The notes: a model not told the origin generated them from the letters alone. A stretch of DNA of 25,124 nt from a virus (IMGVR_UViG_2703718836_000005:1-25124); one strand, 5' to 3'; counted from the first letter of the stretch, positions 19,588-23,136 are shown. Made by a program: numbers and translations.

Positions 19588-19833
19588 TTGGCAGAACGTG
19601 TTGATGATGCAGAGCTGAGCATGAATCAGTTAGAAGCTCTCAAAGACATGGCCATCGATAACATCAGAAAGCAGGCACAGGTCGTGAGCCAGGTATTTAC
19701 AGGGAAGTGTCGTTACTGCAATGAATCGATTGAATCAGGCATTTATTGTGACGCTGAATGTGCGCAATGGCACAGGGAAGAGCAGGCCGCAAAACAGCGT
19801 AAATATGGCATGCGACCGGCAGGATTTGACTGA
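19588..19833 (+). CDS. small four-cysteine zinc-ribbon protein
   Basis: TTG start with SD GAGGA 8 nt upstream (alternative ATG at 19621); CRYC...CDAEC cysteine pairs; a TraR/DksA-like fold is possible but the spacing is atypical. Confidence 0.5.
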   Translation: MAERVDDAELSMNQLEALKDMAIDNIRKQAQVVSQVFTGKCRYCNESIESGIYCDAECAQWHREEQAAKQRKYGMRPAGFD

Positions 19834-19835
19834 TT

Positions 19836-20414
19836 ATGTTGCGCTTTACTGAGGAAGAGTTTCAGGCTTTTAGTGAGCGTCGAAATAAGGGGCGGCCCAG
19901 GCCAAAAACCAAAAAGGATCCATTCTTATCGCTTGCGCCGGTAAAAGAAGTTTCTCCACATGCGAAGGCACTTGCAGCACTTGCAAAGAACCCAGACCTG
20001 CGCGACGGAAATTGCGAGCACTTCGAGCAGGTTTTCATTTTTGATTACTTCGAACGCAAGCACCCTGACATCTATGAGCTGTTGCATGCAACGCCTAACG
20101 GAGGGAAACGTTCAAAAGCAACCGCCGGGAAAATGAAGGCTGAAGGGCAGAAAAAAGGTTATCCGGACATGAGTCTCGATAAAGCATGCGGTATTTATCA
20201 CGGCATGCGAATTGAGCTTAAAGAACCAAATGGTAAAGCCCCGACGAAAGAGCAGATCGCCTGGATGCGCAGGCTTAGAGAGGAAGGTTACTACGTCGTT
20301 CTTGCGTATGGTGCAGAACAAGCGATAACCGCCATCCTGGAATACATAAGCCTTAAAAAGGGTGAGGCTATTGAGCATGTATTGAACGGTGATAAGTGGT
20401 TGTTCGCTACGTGA
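19836..20414 (+). CDS. VRR-NUC domain nuclease (PD-(D/E)xK superfamily)
   Basis: KGYPDMSLD...GMRIELKEPNGK...QIAWMRRLREEGYYV matches the VRR-NUC pattern. Confidence 0.65.
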   Translation: MLRFTEEEFQAFSERRNKGRPRPKTKKDPFLSLAPVKEVSPHAKALAALAKNPDLRDGNCEHFEQVFIFDYFERKHPDIYELLHATPNGGKRSKATAGKMKAEGQKKGYPDMSLDKACGIYHGMRIELKEPNGKAPTKEQIAWMRRLREEGYYVVLAYGAEQAITAILEYISLKKGEAIEHVLNGDKWLFAT

Positions 20415-20480
20415 AATAATAAATTAATTAGTGCATATGTGTTCTTTGATACAGCGCACATTAACATCGGGAGAATAATC

Positions 20481-20636
20481 GTGTCATCCAAGGCTAATTA
20501 TGAATCGCTGGCATCGATCATGCCGCGTAATGAACAGGAAGCAGATGCTGTAGTGGACCCGGTAATCGCTGAAATGAATGCTCGCCTGGAGGCTGAATTT
20601 GCAGCTGAGAATGAACATACCACCCAGGGCGACTAG
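20481..20636 (+). CDS. small hypothetical protein
   Basis: GTG start with SD GGGAG 7 nt upstream; 51 aa. Confidence 0.35.
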   Translation: MSSKANYESLASIMPRNEQEADAVVDPVIAEMNARLEAEFAAENEHTTQGD

Positions 20637-21240
20637 GACTGTTTTTTGTGTCGGTAGCGGTCCGTCACTCACTCGTGAGGACTGTGCTGCTATAGAAAAA
20701 ACTGGCTGTTCAATCATCGCGGTTAACAATTCCTGGCAGATGTTCGATGACATTTATGCCTTATACGCCGGTGATTTGTCATGGTGGAAGCAATACGGAT
20801 CCACCATACCGGGAGGGAAATTCCGCAAAGTGACAGCCAACCTGGCGGCGGCGAAATCATTTTCGTTGGAGTACAGGCGATATTGTGGACCGGCGGAAGG
20901 GGTAAATAGCGGCGCGCAGGCTATCAGTCTGGCTGCTGAATCAGGGGCTGAAGTAGTTGTATTAGTCGGCTATGACTGTTCTCTGCAAAACGGCCTTCAT
21001 TGGCATGGCGCGCACCCTCAAGCCCTACGGAATCCAACGCAGGTGTCTATTTCAAAATGGCAACAGCAGTTCCTGGATACCCGCAAAAAACACGCAGATT
21101 TACATATTTTGAATGCAAGTAGGAGCAGTGCAATTCAATGTTTCCCAAGAATAAATTTAGAGGCAGTGATCGCGTTATTATCGTCGGCAGTGGCCCAAGC
21201 GCCGCAAAGTTTGTTGCGCCGCGCGGAGTGCCGATTATAG
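20599..21240 (+). CDS. sialyltransferase-like / MptE-like (DUF115, GT42-like) protein, paralog 1
   Basis: VFCVGSGPSL...IIAVNNS...NSGAQAISLAAESGAEVVVLVGYDCS resembles the GNGPSL and SG...YLSGIDFY motifs of Campylobacter Cst-II type enzymes; TTG start at 20599 has SD GGAGG 6 nt upstream (alternatives ATG 20611 or 20578). Confidence 0.55.
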   Translation: MQLRMNIPPRATRTVFCVGSGPSLTREDCAAIEKTGCSIIAVNNSWQMFDDIYALYAGDLSWWKQYGSTIPGGKFRKVTANLAAAKSFSLEYRRYCGPAEGVNSGAQAISLAAESGAEVVVLVGYDCSLQNGLHWHGAHPQALRNPTQVSISKWQQQFLDTRKKHADLHILNASRSSAIQCFPRINLEAVIALLSSAVAQAPQSLLRRAECRL

Positions 21241-21764
21241 CGGTCAATGGGGCCATCGACTGGCTGAACCGCGCTTCTTATTTTTTCACACTTGATCCAT
21301 CGCCAGACAATATGCGGCGCGTTGGTCGTGGCCGCCGTCGCCGTGGTGTTTGTTATTGCATGGCACTACCCGATGCTAAAGAACGTGAAGTCAGAGACGG
21401 CGTTCTGTGCTTCCGTCGTGTGGCTGAACGTGGCATGGAGCCAAAAAATATGAATTCTCCCGAGTGGTGGGCGTGGCGCTGGTCCGCACATTTCGGACTT
21501 TGCGAAGATGAGAATGAAATTGCCAGCGGCAATAGTGCATATGGCGCTCTGAACCTGGCTTTCCATATCGGATTCAAACATGTCGCCCTGGTGGGCGTTG
21601 ACGCTACACAAGAACCACGCGTTCACTCCGGCGGCACGCCAAAAAATCTAAGTCACCTGCCTTTGTTATTCCAGTCTGCGCGTGAACAGATTGACGTTGT
21701 TTCATGCGGGAAAATGGGAGGTATTCCGCAGATGACTCTTAAAGAATGGCTGAAGAATACATGA
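21138..21764 (+). CDS. sialyltransferase-like / MptE-like protein, paralog 2
   Basis: [10 protein letters not shown]...IIAVNGA...[27 protein letters not shown] parallels paralog 1; overlaps paralog 1 by about 100 nt in another frame. Confidence 0.6.
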
Positions 21765-22438
21765 TGGCACCCACAATTTATCACCGTATCGACGGTACCA
21801 AATACAGGAATGTCTGGGTTGTTGGTGATCTGCATGGTTGCTACACCAGACTGATGTCCGAACTCCATCGTGTGGATTTTGACCCGGCGCAGGATTTACT
21901 GATATCGGTCGGCGACCTTATCGATCGCGGTACTGAAAATGTCGAATGTCTGGAACTATTGCAGATGCCCTGGTTCAGGGCAGTGATGGGGAACCATGAG
22001 CGGCTGATGATTGATGCGTTAAGTCCAGATGGCAACGTGAATAACTGGCTAATGAATGGCGGACAATGGTTCTTCATGCTGGACACTGATCAGGAAATAT
22101 TAGCCTGGGCGCTGGTGGAGCTGGTAAAGCGTCTGCCCTATATCATTGAGTTGAACACCGGGCAAGAAAATATCGTTATAGCCCATGCCGACTATCCGGA
22201 TAATGAATACCAATTCGGTAAGGAGGTGCCGCTTTTCAACGTTGTCTGGGCGCGCGAGCGTATCAGTGATTCGATGGATGATATTGGTGGCGAAATTTCG
22301 GGCGCAGATCGTTTTATCTTTGGTCACACTCCGGTGAAAAGCCCGAAGACATTCTGGAATCAGCAGTATATCGACACTGGTGCCGTATTTTGCGGAAACC
22401 TGACATTGATGAAAGTGAAAGGTGATGGTGCAGCATGA
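21761..22438 (+). CDS. ppp: Ser/Thr protein phosphatase, lambda PP-like (calcineurin-like metallophosphatase)
   Basis: GDLHG, GDLIDRG, GNHE and downstream blocks nearly colinear with lambda PP as I recall it; start chosen at the ATG that overlaps the upstream stop (ATGA); the ORF track starts at 21746. Confidence 0.85.
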
Positions 22439-23136
22439 AGATTGCTTTAGTTTTTCGCTCTGGTGGTGACTATAACGCTTCCGATGTGCAGTGGCTGGTT
22501 AATCAACTGCCAAAAGGCTATGAAATTATTTGCCTGACAGACCTGAAGCGTTTACATGTACCTGGCGTCAAAGTTGTCCCATTGATCAACCAGTGGCAAA
22601 AGTGCCGTGGCTGGTGGGCGAAAATAGAGTTGTTCCGACCGGATATAACCGATGATCTGTTCTATCTGGATTTGGACACGGTTATTGCCGGTGATATACG
22701 CCCAATCCTAGAGCATCCACCAACCAGCTTCACCATGCTTAGGGATTTTTACCATCCACAATATCGTGGCAGCGGTGCCCTGTGGATACCAAATAGTGTT
22801 AAAGCGCATATCTGGAGTTCATTCTGGCAAGATCCGGAAGGTTGGATTTCTCGTTGTGTCACTACTGAGTGCTGGGGTGACCAGGGGTTCTTACGAAAGG
22901 TTATGGGCGATGATACACCAGCATTTCAGGATCTGTATCCAGGATGGTTTGTAAGTTACAAGGCCGATGTTGTGGAACCTGGTTCAAAATATGCGAGCGC
23001 GCGTTACTCCAGGGGGAATGGGGCATTACCAAAAGACTGCCGAATAATCTTTTTCCACGGCAAACCGCGACCTCGCGAAGTGTCAGAGGATTGGCTTCCC
23101 CTTATCAGCTCATTTTTTGAGCGAGAATCAGAATAA
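22435..23136 (+). CDS. putative GT-A fold glycosyltransferase with DxD motif
   Basis: YLDLDTV (DxD) and [10 protein letters not shown] blocks; ATG overlaps the ppp stop (ATGA). Confidence 0.55.

What the first reader, a model, noticed from the sequence alone, without database searches (positions are those of the whole stretch)
19588..23136. C1-operator-headed accessory operon with duplicated sialyltransferase-like genes, a phosphatase and a second glycosyltransferase
One rightward unit encodes a zinc-ribbon protein, a VRR-NUC nuclease, two overlapping paralogs with the GxGPS / AVN / SG...VGxD pattern of Cst-II-like (GT42) and MptE/Maf-like enzymes, a lambda-PP-type Ser/Thr phosphatase and a DxD glycosyltransferase. 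Several genes are coupled by ATGA overlaps. Two distinct glycosyl-transfer families beside a phosphatase and a nuclease suggest a coordinated modification activity (surface glycan, virion protein or nucleic acid) rather than unrelated genes. The paralog pair overlapping by about 100 nt in different frames is unusual.
Basis: partly seen in the sequence, partly recalled or inferred. Interest (0 to 1): 0.6.

Follow-up and report, generated by a model that had tools for sequence, protein, structure and literature searches.

The report
P1 pmgO-pmgP-pmgQ glycosyltransferase cassette
This stretch is the long-annotated but functionally unexplained pmgL–pmgQ region of phage P1; three of its genes (pmgO, pmgP, pmgQ) form a sugar-transferase cassette shared by many unrelated phages and probably glycosylate proteins such as virion parts, while the nuclease, zinc-finger protein and phosphatase are just P1-lineage neighbours.

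Summary
The window region is 98.5–99.4% identical to phage P1/P7/RCS47 genes pmgL-pmgM-pmgN-pmgO-pmgP-ppp-pmgQ. The ORFs, the C1 operator, the motifs and the 103-nt pmgO/pmgP overlap are real. There is also a second annotated C1 operator between pmgM and pmgN, and only one certain ATGA junction.

PmgO/P/Q travel together in about 35 non-P1-type loci from Proteobacteria and Bacteroidota. One locus has a natural O–P fusion, and a sugar-type methyltransferase often lies between P and Q. Ppp, PmgL and PmgM accompany them only in P1 relatives, and some P1 relatives lack ppp.

The cassette usually sits inside head/tail operons or beside lysis genes. In bacterial chromosomes it sits among Big_1 adhesin genes, and once PmgO is fused to Big_1.

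My best reading (confidence about 0.45) is a cytoplasmic protein O-glycosylation system acting on virion proteins, perhaps using CMP-Kdo. No glycan on P1 has been reported, and all the genes are dispensable for plaque formation.

Interest is moderate.

The parts
19514..19530 (-). C1 repressor operator O26/Op82. It lies in the divergent control region between gene 26 (leftward) and pmgL (rightward). P1 also annotates late promoters LP26/LPpmgL and sigma-70 promoters here.
   Evidence: Two mismatches to the operator consensus; 6 matches in the window against 0.13 expected. Identical to the annotated P1 site.
19588..19833 (+). pmgL: 81-aa DksA/TraR-like zinc-finger protein (CxxC...CxxxC). A P1-lineage neighbour, not part of the conserved cassette.
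   Evidence: phrog_54, E 1.6e-12. Found next to O/P/Q only in P1-type loci.
19836..20414 (+). pmgM: VRR-NUC (PD-(D/E)xK) nuclease-fold protein. A P1-lineage neighbour.
   Evidence: PDB 4qbl VRR-NUC, E 3.5e-17. Pfam VRR_NUC E 3e-4, below the cut-off. phrog_5702, E 8e-27.
20421..20437 (-). Second C1 operator (Oppp/Op83), with the predicted promoter PpmgN just upstream. It marks the head of the pmgN-pmgQ sub-unit.
   Evidence: Annotated in P1 and P7. The sequence is conserved in the window. By my count it has 4 mismatches to the consensus, so the 3-mismatch scan missed it.
20481..20636 (+). pmgN: small ORF of unknown function (51 aa in the P1 annotation; 65 aa from GTG 20439 in P7). It overlaps the start of pmgO by 59 nt.
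   Evidence: phrog_2350, unknown function.
20578..21240 (+). pmgO: Maf/MptE/GT42-fold nucleotide-(sugar) transferase, cassette member 1. The real start may be ATG 20611: residues 1-15 are disordered and absent from homologues.
21138..21764 (+). pmgP: distant paralogue of pmgO, cassette member 2. Its ATG lies inside PmgO's conserved xCF motif, downstream of an AGGAG at 21121-21125.
   Evidence: hhalign of the PmgO family against the PmgP family: 97.8%, E 7.4e-13, 161 columns. Natural O-P fusion P0051. More than 327 homologues at over 50% identity across Proteobacteria.
21746..22438 (+). ppp: lambda-type Ser/Thr protein phosphatase (GDLHG, GDLIDRG and GNHE motifs present). It is a lineage-specific insertion between pmgP and pmgQ, at the position where other phages carry a methyltransferase.
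   Evidence: 1g5b, E 1.1e-94. Metallophos, E 9e-16. Absent from P1 relatives L115, L119, L123 and L124 and from all non-P1 loci.
22435..23136 (+). pmgQ: GT8-like GT-A glycosyltransferase with invariant D79-L-D81, cassette member 3. It is coupled to ppp by an ATGA overlap.
23138..23203 (.). End of the unit: C1 operators Op86a (23138-23154, +) and Op86b (23187-23203, -) flank an 11-bp-stem hairpin followed by a U-run (23163-23190). The hairpin is terminator-like for pmgQ. The operators control pmgR-pmgS.
   Evidence: Fold: -13.4 kcal/mol, z -5.7.

Best explanation
The region is the pmgL-pmgQ segment of a P1-type phage-plasmid. It is repressed by C1 in the prophage and expressed during lytic growth.

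Its functional core is a three-gene glycosylation cassette:
- PmgO and PmgP are distantly paralogous Maf/MptE/GT42-fold transferases. They probably work as a heteromeric pair, because they are fused in one relative.
- PmgQ is a GT8-type, DxD, probably UDP-hexose-dependent transferase.
- All three are soluble cytoplasmic proteins.

I infer that together they build a short O-linked glycan on proteins that leave the cell by lysis rather than by Sec export. In phages the targets would be virion structural proteins. In bacterial islands they would be Big_1 (Ig-like) adhesin-type proteins. The Maf-like pair most plausibly transfers a CMP-activated ulosonic acid. In E. coli K-12 the only such donor is CMP-Kdo. 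PmgQ would add a hexose.

Shown here: gene identities, folds, paralogy, co-occurrence, contexts and fusions.
Inferred: the complex, the donors, the protein acceptor and any glycan on P1 particles.

PmgL, PmgM, PmgN and Ppp are P1-lineage neighbours with separate roles.
For: Identity and regulation:
- 98.5-99.4% identity to P1/P7 with annotated C1 operators and a late promoter.

Folds:
- Paralogy of PmgO and PmgP.

Module:
- O/P/Q co-occur in loci from Gamma-, Beta- and Alphaproteobacteria and Bacteroidota, with varying gene order.
- Natural O-P fusion P0051.

Context in other phages:
- TerL - portal - protease - HK97 capsid - O - P - SAM methyltransferase - Q - connector/tail genes (L096, L104, L106, L107, L109, L122).
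- After the portal or MuF gene (L110, L111, L125, L101).
- After the lysis cassette and before terminase (L003, L005, L112).

Glycan-type partners:
- FkbM methyltransferases (L102, L117).
- A PmgO-TylF O-methyltransferase fusion, P0311.
- An adjacent GT2-like gene (L126).
- A recurrent ~192-aa gene with weak, sub-threshold Nucleotid_trans matches (L003, L110).

Link to protein substrates:
- The cassette is embedded among inverse-autotransporter and Big_1 genes in Pseudescherichia, Serratia and L182.
- PmgO is fused to Big_1/Big_13 domains in P0229.

Other:
- No hydrophobic segment in any of the proteins.
- Maf enzymes can use CMP-Kdo in E. coli (PMC11339370).
Against: - No experiment shows any glycan on P1.
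- Two recent P1 cryo-EM papers do not mention glycans.
- The P1 virion proteomics paper does not mention glycosylation.
- Single knockouts and CRISPRi of pmgL, M, O, P, ppp and Q give no plaque or anti-restriction phenotype.
- In two phage loci the cassette lies among replication genes rather than structural genes (L102, L126).
- GT8 also contains LPS-core enzymes.
- In P1 the cassette is near the tail genes and pmgR, but not inside a capsid operon.
Confidence: 0.45

Rival explanations
1. Cell-envelope (LPS core) modification. PmgO/P add Kdo and PmgQ adds a hexose to the LPS core, which is the P1 receptor. This would stop superinfection or the loss of progeny to cell debris.
For: - GT8 includes the LPS/LOS enzymes LgtC and WaaO/WaaJ; LgtC is a top structural match.
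- Weak hits of PmgP and of the fusion to WaaZ Kdo-transferase models.
- All hosts are LPS-bearing diderms.
- The cassette lies next to lysis genes in several phages.
Against: - The genes are C1-repressed or late-expressed, so there is little time for new LPS to replace old.
- The cassette lies inside capsid/tail operons in many phages with presumably different receptors.
- The chromosomal copies sit with Big_1 adhesins, not waa genes, and one is fused to Big_1.
- Comparison with E. coli WaaZ and WaaO is insignificant (hhalign probability 5-13%).
Confidence: 0.2
2. Nucleic-acid or small-molecule modification. PmgO/P act as MptE/thiamine-pyrophosphokinase-like pyrophosphoryl or nucleotide-sugar transferases, and PmgQ acts as a glycosyltransferase on DNA, a nucleotide or a signalling molecule, for example as an anti-defence function.
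For: - The cassette lies between DNA polymerase and ribonucleotide reductase in L102 and near a primase-helicase in L126.
- A nuclease (PmgM) is adjacent in P1.
Against: - No base-hydroxymethylation or other DNA hypermodification genes were seen near the cassette in the loci examined.
- Knockouts left anti-restriction activity unchanged.
- No PADLOC family match.
- Partner genes are sugar-type methyltransferases and further glycosyltransferases.
- The nuclease does not co-travel with the cassette.
Confidence: 0.1
3. One reading: all seven genes, including the phosphatase, nuclease and zinc-ribbon protein, form one coordinated modification pathway.
For: - Same strand, tight spacing and shared C1 control in P1.
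- ppp is translationally coupled to pmgQ by an ATGA overlap.
Against: - Ppp, PmgL and PmgM are absent from every non-P1 locus that carries O/P/Q.
- ppp is missing from some P1 relatives.
- An internal operator and promoter split the unit.
- The slot between P and Q holds a methyltransferase in other phages.
Confidence: 0.07
4. pmgO and pmgP are expressed as a single fusion protein by programmed -1 ribosomal frameshifting within the 103-nt overlap.
For: - pmgP is in the -1 frame of pmgO in 16 of 17 adjacent pairs in the viral-contig set, and in the seven pairs examined.
- A natural in-frame fusion exists.
- A heptamer of X_XXY_YYZ form (A_AAT_TTA, 21153-21159) lies in phase.
Against: - No slippery heptamer is conserved (none in L005 or L089).
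- Overlap length varies from 4 to 133 nt.
- Every pmgP has its own ATG, and Shine-Dalgarno-like sequences precede it in the enterobacterial examples read (AGGAG in P1).
- A fusion at that site would delete PmgO's conserved LE motif.
Confidence: 0.05

Closest known systems
Phage P1 / P7 genes pmgL-pmgQ (hdmA-D, ppp in P7), Lobocka et al. 2004 annotation
   Same: 98.5-99.4% nucleotide identity, with the same gene order, operators and overlaps.
   Different: Nothing material. This window is a P1-type phage-plasmid variant. The P1 names ('putative morphogenetic function') were assigned without functional data.
Maf flagellin nonulosonic-acid O-glycosyltransferases (e.g. 5mu5; C. botulinum Maf)
   Different: Maf proteins are about 600 aa with extra substrate-binding domains, whereas PmgO and PmgP are about 200-aa single domains that come as a paralogous pair. 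No flagellin context. Donor and acceptor are untested.
GT42 sialyltransferases Cst-I / Cst-II of Campylobacter
   Different: Sequence similarity is not significant (E 0.12-0.8). The hosts of P1 generally make no CMP-sialic acid. The RefSeq/PHROG label 'alpha-2,3-sialyltransferase' is therefore an over-annotation.
GT8 retaining glycosyltransferases (glycogenin, LgtC, GlyE of serine-rich-repeat adhesin glycosylation, Skp1 Gat1)
   Different: No hit to any Pfam model at E<=0.1. The protein is short (233 aa). The family-specific invariant WW-K and HG-P-P motifs are not those of canonical GT8.
Virion glycosylation cassettes of mycobacteriophages (Freeman et al. 2023, cited) and chlorovirus capsid glycosylation (A64R)
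   Different: Gram-negative hosts. I could not read the Freeman paper, so I could not compare the enzyme families. No glycan has been demonstrated for any phage carrying this cassette.
Lambda protein phosphatase (NinI, 1g5b), VRR-NUC nucleases (4qbl) and DksA/TraR zinc-finger proteins
   Same: Ppp, PmgM and PmgL are clear members or relatives of these families.
   Different: They are not linked to the glycosyltransferase cassette outside the P1 lineage.

Membership tests
GT8 glycosyltransferases (PmgQ) | GT-A fold superimposable on solved GT8 enzymes | tested here: met
GT8 glycosyltransferases (PmgQ) | DxD metal / UDP-sugar binding motif | tested here: met
   D79-L-D81-T82 is invariant in 29 homologues and aligns with the DxD of 6mw5 and 5gvv.
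GT8 glycosyltransferases (PmgQ) | C-terminal His...KPW-type motif (metal-binding His) | tested here: inconclusive
   An invariant H208-G209-x-P211-R-P213 aligns next to 'HYSSNPKPW' of 6mw5, but the His is offset by two positions in the HMM alignment.
GT8 glycosyltransferases (PmgQ) | Match to the curated family model (Pfam Glyco_transf_8) | tested here: not met
   No Pfam family at E<=0.1. Only the profile-against-PDB search and fold comparison reach GT8.
MptE-like / Maf superfamily (PmgO, PmgP) | Match to PF01973 above the gathering score | tested here: not met
   23.6 and 21.9 bits against a cut-off of 34.6. However, many homologues carry precomputed PF01973 hits.
MptE-like / Maf superfamily (PmgO, PmgP) | Rossmann-like core shared by Maf, MptE and GT42 | tested here: met
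Maf flagellin glycosyltransferases | Multi-domain architecture of about 600 aa and a flagellin/flagellar gene context | tested here: not met
   PmgO is 220 aa and PmgP 208 aa, both single-domain. No flagellar genes were seen in any locus.
GT42 sialyltransferases (Cst-I/II) | Significant sequence similarity, and a CMP-sialic acid donor available in the host | tested here: not met
   Best E 0.15 with a family profile. That E. coli K-12 lacks CMP-Neu5Ac is established knowledge, not tested here.
GT42 sialyltransferases (Cst-I/II) | Nucleotide-binding motifs GxGPS, N, (T/N)SG and GxD | tested here: met
   Aligned to Cst-II residues 3-25 and 122-157 and invariant in the family.
WaaZ-type Kdo transferases | Similarity to E. 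coli WaaZ or TIGR04437 | tested here: not met
   TIGR04437 E 0.085 against a cut-off of 200 bits. hhalign against K-12 WaaZ gives probability 12-13%.
Lambda-type Ser/Thr phosphatase (Ppp) | Sequence similarity to lambda PP, and the metallophosphoesterase motifs GDxHG, GDxxDRG and GNHE | tested here: met
   1g5b, E 1.1e-94. GDLHG, GDLIDRG and GNHE can be read in the translation.
VRR-NUC nucleases (PmgM) | VRR-NUC domain with the PD...ExK motif | tested here: met
   4qbl, E 3.5e-17, with YPD...IELK aligned. The Pfam score is just below the cut-off (21.2 against 23.8).
C1-controlled P1 operon | 17-bp asymmetric C1 operator overlapping the promoter | tested here: met
   19514-19530, and 20421-20437 by annotation. 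Binding itself was not tested here.
Phage virion-glycosylation cassettes | A glycan demonstrably attached to virion proteins and dependent on the cassette | not testable with these tools
   Only context supports this. The P1 structural papers do not mention glycans.

The most novel reading that the evidence does not exclude
P1 and many other phages of Gram-negative bacteria O-glycosylate their own virion proteins in the cytoplasm. They would use a previously unrecognised cassette: a heteromeric pair of mini-Maf-like transferases that add Kdo (or another CMP-ulosonic acid), a GT8 hexosyltransferase, and often an O-methyltransferase. Bacteria would use the same cassette, together with holin/endolysin genes, to glycosylate and release Big_1-domain surface proteins.
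Probability: 0.3. Interest if true: 0.75.

Novelty: new variant of a known kind. Interest (0 to 1): 0.45.

Why it matters
P1 is one of the most used phages in genetics, yet pmgO, pmgP and pmgQ have carried a placeholder name for twenty years.

Recognising them as a portable three-enzyme cassette turns 'function unknown' into one cheap experiment: glycoprotein staining or intact mass of wild-type versus knockout particles. The supporting observations are that the PmgO family has about 480 clusters at 50% identity at E<=1e-30, that the cassette often sits inside head/tail operons, and that it is linked to Ig-like adhesins.

If virion glycosylation is confirmed, three things would follow:
- Phage particle glycosylation would be extended from actinobacteriophages to phages of Gram-negative bacteria.
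- It would bear on the immune recognition of therapeutic phages.
- It would add small Maf-like enzymes to the glyco-engineering toolbox.

If it is not confirmed, the region remains an ordinary, dispensable accessory block of P1.

Tried and rejected
1. Programmed -1 frameshift fusing PmgO to PmgP. An in-phase A_AAT_TTA exists in P1, but no slippery site is conserved. Each pmgP has its own ATG, preceded by a Shine-Dalgarno-like sequence in the examples read, and overlap length varies from 4 to 133 nt. Rejected.

2. WaaZ (Kdo III transferase) or WaaO membership. Comparisons with the K-12 proteins are insignificant.

3. Defence or anti-defence assignment. There are no PADLOC matches.

4. One alignment of the O-P fusion with both families, intended for modelling the pair. 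MAFFT stacked both families on the C-terminal half, so it was unusable. I modelled PmgO and PmgQ separately instead.

5. The first profile comparison of the O and P families was contaminated by the fusion protein in the alignment. I repeated it without the fusion.

6. The first viral-contig scan returned only P1 copies. I repeated it with a distant first sequence.

7. The AFDB fold library was unavailable. The BFVD search gave only uncharacterised phage proteins.

8. The simple sigma-70 scan found no rightward promoter in the region. Promoter statements therefore rest on the P1 annotation.

9. Literature searches found no functional study of these genes, only essentiality tables. The Freeman 2023 paper could not be read.

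
Full report
WHAT IS THERE. Window 19400-23300 is 98.5-99.4% identical to phage P1, P7, RCS47 and other P1-type phage-plasmids. In their annotation it corresponds to pmgL, pmgM, pmgN, pmgO, pmgP, ppp and pmgQ; P7 calls these upf81.0, upf81.2, hdmA-C, ppp and hdmD.

The C1 operator at the head of the region is real. It lies at 19514-19530 on the minus strand, with two mismatches to the consensus. 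The window holds six such sites against 0.13 expected by chance, and this one is identical to P1's O26/Op82. P1 also annotates a late promoter (LPpmgL) there. Between pmgM and pmgN, P1 annotates a second C1 operator (Oppp/Op83, window 20421-20437) and a promoter, and that sequence is conserved here. The 'one unit' is therefore two C1-controlled sub-units, pmgL-pmgM and pmgN-pmgQ.

The block ends in an 11-bp-stem hairpin with a U-run at 23163-23190 (-13.4 kcal/mol, z -5.7). This hairpin is flanked by the two operators of the next operon.

Gene junctions:
- pmgL/pmgM: 2-nt spacer.
- pmgN/pmgO: 59-nt overlap.
- pmgO/pmgP: 103-nt overlap.
- pmgP/ppp: 19-nt overlap as annotated, or ATGA if ppp starts at ATG 21761.
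- ppp/pmgQ: ATGA.

WHAT THE PROTEINS ARE.
- PmgL matches the DksA-like zinc-finger phage family (E 1.6e-12).
- PmgM is a VRR-NUC protein (PDB 4qbl, E 3.5e-17, with the PD...ELK motif aligned). Its Pfam score is just under the cut-off.
- Ppp is a close homologue of lambda phosphatase (1g5b, E 1.1e-94).
- PmgO and PmgP each give only sub-threshold MptE-like Pfam hits (23.6 and 21.9 bits against 34.6). Pairwise BLAST aligns just 36 residues. Family profiles align over 161 columns at 97.8% probability, E 7.4e-13, so the two are genuine but old paralogues.
It is invariant in both families.
- None of the seven proteins has a membrane-like hydrophobic segment.

WHICH GENES BELONG TOGETHER. Homologues of PmgO, PmgP and PmgQ were traced in other genomes.
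- In a lambdoid Citrobacter rodentium prophage the three genes follow the lysis cassette and precede terminase (L005).
- In a podovirus-like contig, PmgO and PmgP are one fused 376-aa protein, followed by a PmgQ homologue and a further ~192-aa gene with a weak, sub-threshold Nucleotid_trans match (L003).
- Across 17 species-representative genome loci and 23 non-P1-dominated viral contigs, P and Q are almost always adjacent, and O is present in roughly four of five. Gene orders seen are O-P-Q, O-Q-P, Q-P and P-Q-O. Hosts range from Enterobacteriaceae to Zhongshania, Methylophilaceae, Microbulbifer, Brevundimonas and the Bacteroidota genus Sinomicrobium.
- By contrast, PmgL, PmgM and Ppp appear beside the trio only in P1-type elements. 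Several P1 relatives have M-O-P-Q-R-S with no ppp (L115, L119, L123, L124).
- In at least nine phage loci the position between P and Q, or just after Q, holds a ~190-aa gene. One version of it is a class-I SAM methyltransferase. In P1, ppp occupies that slot.
- The PmgO family is large: 483 clusters at 50% identity at E<=1e-30 and 3,641 at E<=1e-10.

WHERE THE CASSETTE SITS. The commonest phage context is TerL - portal - prohead protease - HK97-type capsid - (head completion) - O - P - methyltransferase - Q - connector/tail genes (L096, L104, L106, L107, L109, L122). Other contexts:
- directly after the portal gene (L110, L111);
- after a Mu-F-like head gene (L101, L125);
- before the terminase genes (L105);
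- beside lysozyme (L100);
- with FkbM methyltransferases (L102, L117);
- with an extra GT2-like gene (L126);
- twice among replication genes (L102, L126).

In bacterial chromosomes the trio is embedded in islands of Big_1 (Ig-like) proteins.
- In five Pseudescherichia-type genomes, an inverse autotransporter with seven Big_1 repeats is followed on the same strand by the PmgO homologue. PmgP, PmgQ and three more Big_1 proteins flank it.
- Serratia plymuthica has P, Q, a holin, a lysozyme, two PmgO copies and two Big_1 proteins.
- Locus L182 has a holin, a PmgO::Big_1::Big_13 fusion, a GT2, a PmgQ homologue, a lysozyme and an inverse autotransporter.
- Other domain fusions join PmgO to a TylF-type sugar O-methyltransferase or to a second PmgO copy.

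HOW IT MOST LIKELY WORKS. Shown here: three soluble transferase-fold proteins that are inherited together, fused in some lineages, partnered with sugar-type methyltransferases and further glycosyltransferases, expressed in lytic growth, and positioned among genes for proteins that assemble in the cytoplasm.

Inferred: PmgO/PmgP act as a heteromeric Maf-like O-glycosyltransferase and PmgQ as a hexosyltransferase. Together they would build a short glycan on proteins released by lysis. These would be virion proteins in phages and Big_1 proteins in the bacterial islands.

The donor for the Maf-like pair is unknown. P1 encodes no nonulosonic-acid pathway. Every host seen is an LPS-bearing diderm. 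Maf enzymes accept CMP-Kdo in E. coli (PMC11339370). CMP-Kdo is therefore my leading guess. I put this whole reading at about 0.45.

Against it:
- No glycan has been reported on P1. Two cryo-EM studies and the virion proteome paper are silent on the point.
- All these genes are dispensable for plaques and for anti-restriction.
- The fold also contains pyrophosphokinases.

RIVALS.
- LPS-core modification (0.2). It fits GT8 and the weak WaaZ-model hits. It fits poorly with late expression, capsid-operon location, Big_1 linkage and the insignificant WaaZ/WaaO comparisons.
- DNA or small-molecule modification (0.1). It is suggested by the MptE/TPK fold and by two replication-module contexts. There are no base-hydroxymethylation genes near the cassette, no anti-restriction phenotype and no defence-family match.
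The gene distribution contradicts it.
- A -1 frameshift fusion of O and P (0.05). pmgP is in the -1 frame in 16 of 17 adjacent pairs in the viral-contig set, but this is also the phase of an ordinary ATGA junction, which is what L106 has. Overlap length drifts from 4 to 133 nt, and no slippery site is conserved. PmgP's ATG is built into PmgO's conserved xCF motif, with a Shine-Dalgarno-like sequence upstream in the examples read. In P1 the overlap pairs each protein's conserved end with the other's unconserved end: a low-pLDDT PmgO tail and a variable PmgP leader. This is what stop-codon drift would give.

COMPARISON AND NOVELTY. As sequence, the locus is already known: it is P1. By fold and motifs, PmgQ is a divergent GT8-like enzyme, although it fails the curated Pfam model. 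PmgO and PmgP belong to the MptE-like/Maf superfamily but are not Maf proteins (single domain, no flagellar context). They are not demonstrable GT42 sialyltransferases, so the database label 'alpha-2,3-sialyltransferase' overstates what is known.

What appears undescribed in the literature I could search is the O/P/Q trio as a conserved mobile cassette and its links to head/tail operons and Ig-like adhesins. The closest known kind of system is virus-encoded particle glycosylation, as in mycobacteriophages and chloroviruses. If the inference holds, this would be a new variant of that kind in Gram-negative hosts.

VERDICT. Interest is moderate (0.45). The region is not strange, but it offers a well-defined, cheaply testable hypothesis for long-unexplained genes of a classic phage.

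Noticed in passing
L004 (4014-17785), L090-L094 (about 1200-13000), L182 (1343-11598): Bacterial islands combine PmgO/P/Q homologues with a holin, a phage-type lysozyme and several Big_1 / inverse-autotransporter proteins. One protein (P0229) is a PmgO::Big_1::Big_13 fusion. This hints at lysis-type (holin/endolysin) release of cytoplasmically glycosylated Ig-like proteins.
   Followed up: partly
L125 2942-4717: A phage portal protein carries a C-terminal Acb1 (anti-CBASS phosphodiesterase) domain (Pfam E 1.3e-29). This suggests an anti-defence enzyme delivered as part of the portal.
   Followed up: no
window 12500-14000 (ORF 13327-13914): A low-GC island (GC about 0.37) encodes a 195-aa protein with a 'pPIWI-associating nuclease' domain (pP_pnuc_2, E 8e-34). 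Coverage of window 1-19500 by the P1 reference is only 72%, so the island may lie in a gap; this was not checked. The island is present at over 99% identity in a subset of P1-like plasmids.
   Followed up: partly
window 10959-12134: An ORF encodes an IS605-family OrfB/TnpB protein (OrfB_IS605 plus a Cas12f-like TNB domain). It lies just after a pair of overlapping C1 operators at 10585-10612.
   Followed up: no
window 21746-22438, compared with L104, L106-L108, L122 and L096: In P1 the phosphatase gene ppp occupies the slot between pmgP and pmgQ, where many other phages carry a 189-aa SAM methyltransferase. Some P1 relatives have nothing there.
   Followed up: yes
window 20439-20636: pmgN scored as 'essential' by CRISPRi but non-essential by deletion (PMC10695390). 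It overlaps the pmgO start and lies directly after the internal operator and promoter, so the CRISPRi effect may be polar or due to blocking the promoter.
   Followed up: no
Phage records OP883945, OP752703, AP018399, OP688485, MH719082: Distant PmgP homologues (31-47% identity) occur in Stenotrophomonas and Xanthomonas jumbo phages and in about 111-116-kb Escherichia phages. These are cultured phages that could be used to test the cassette.
   Followed up: no
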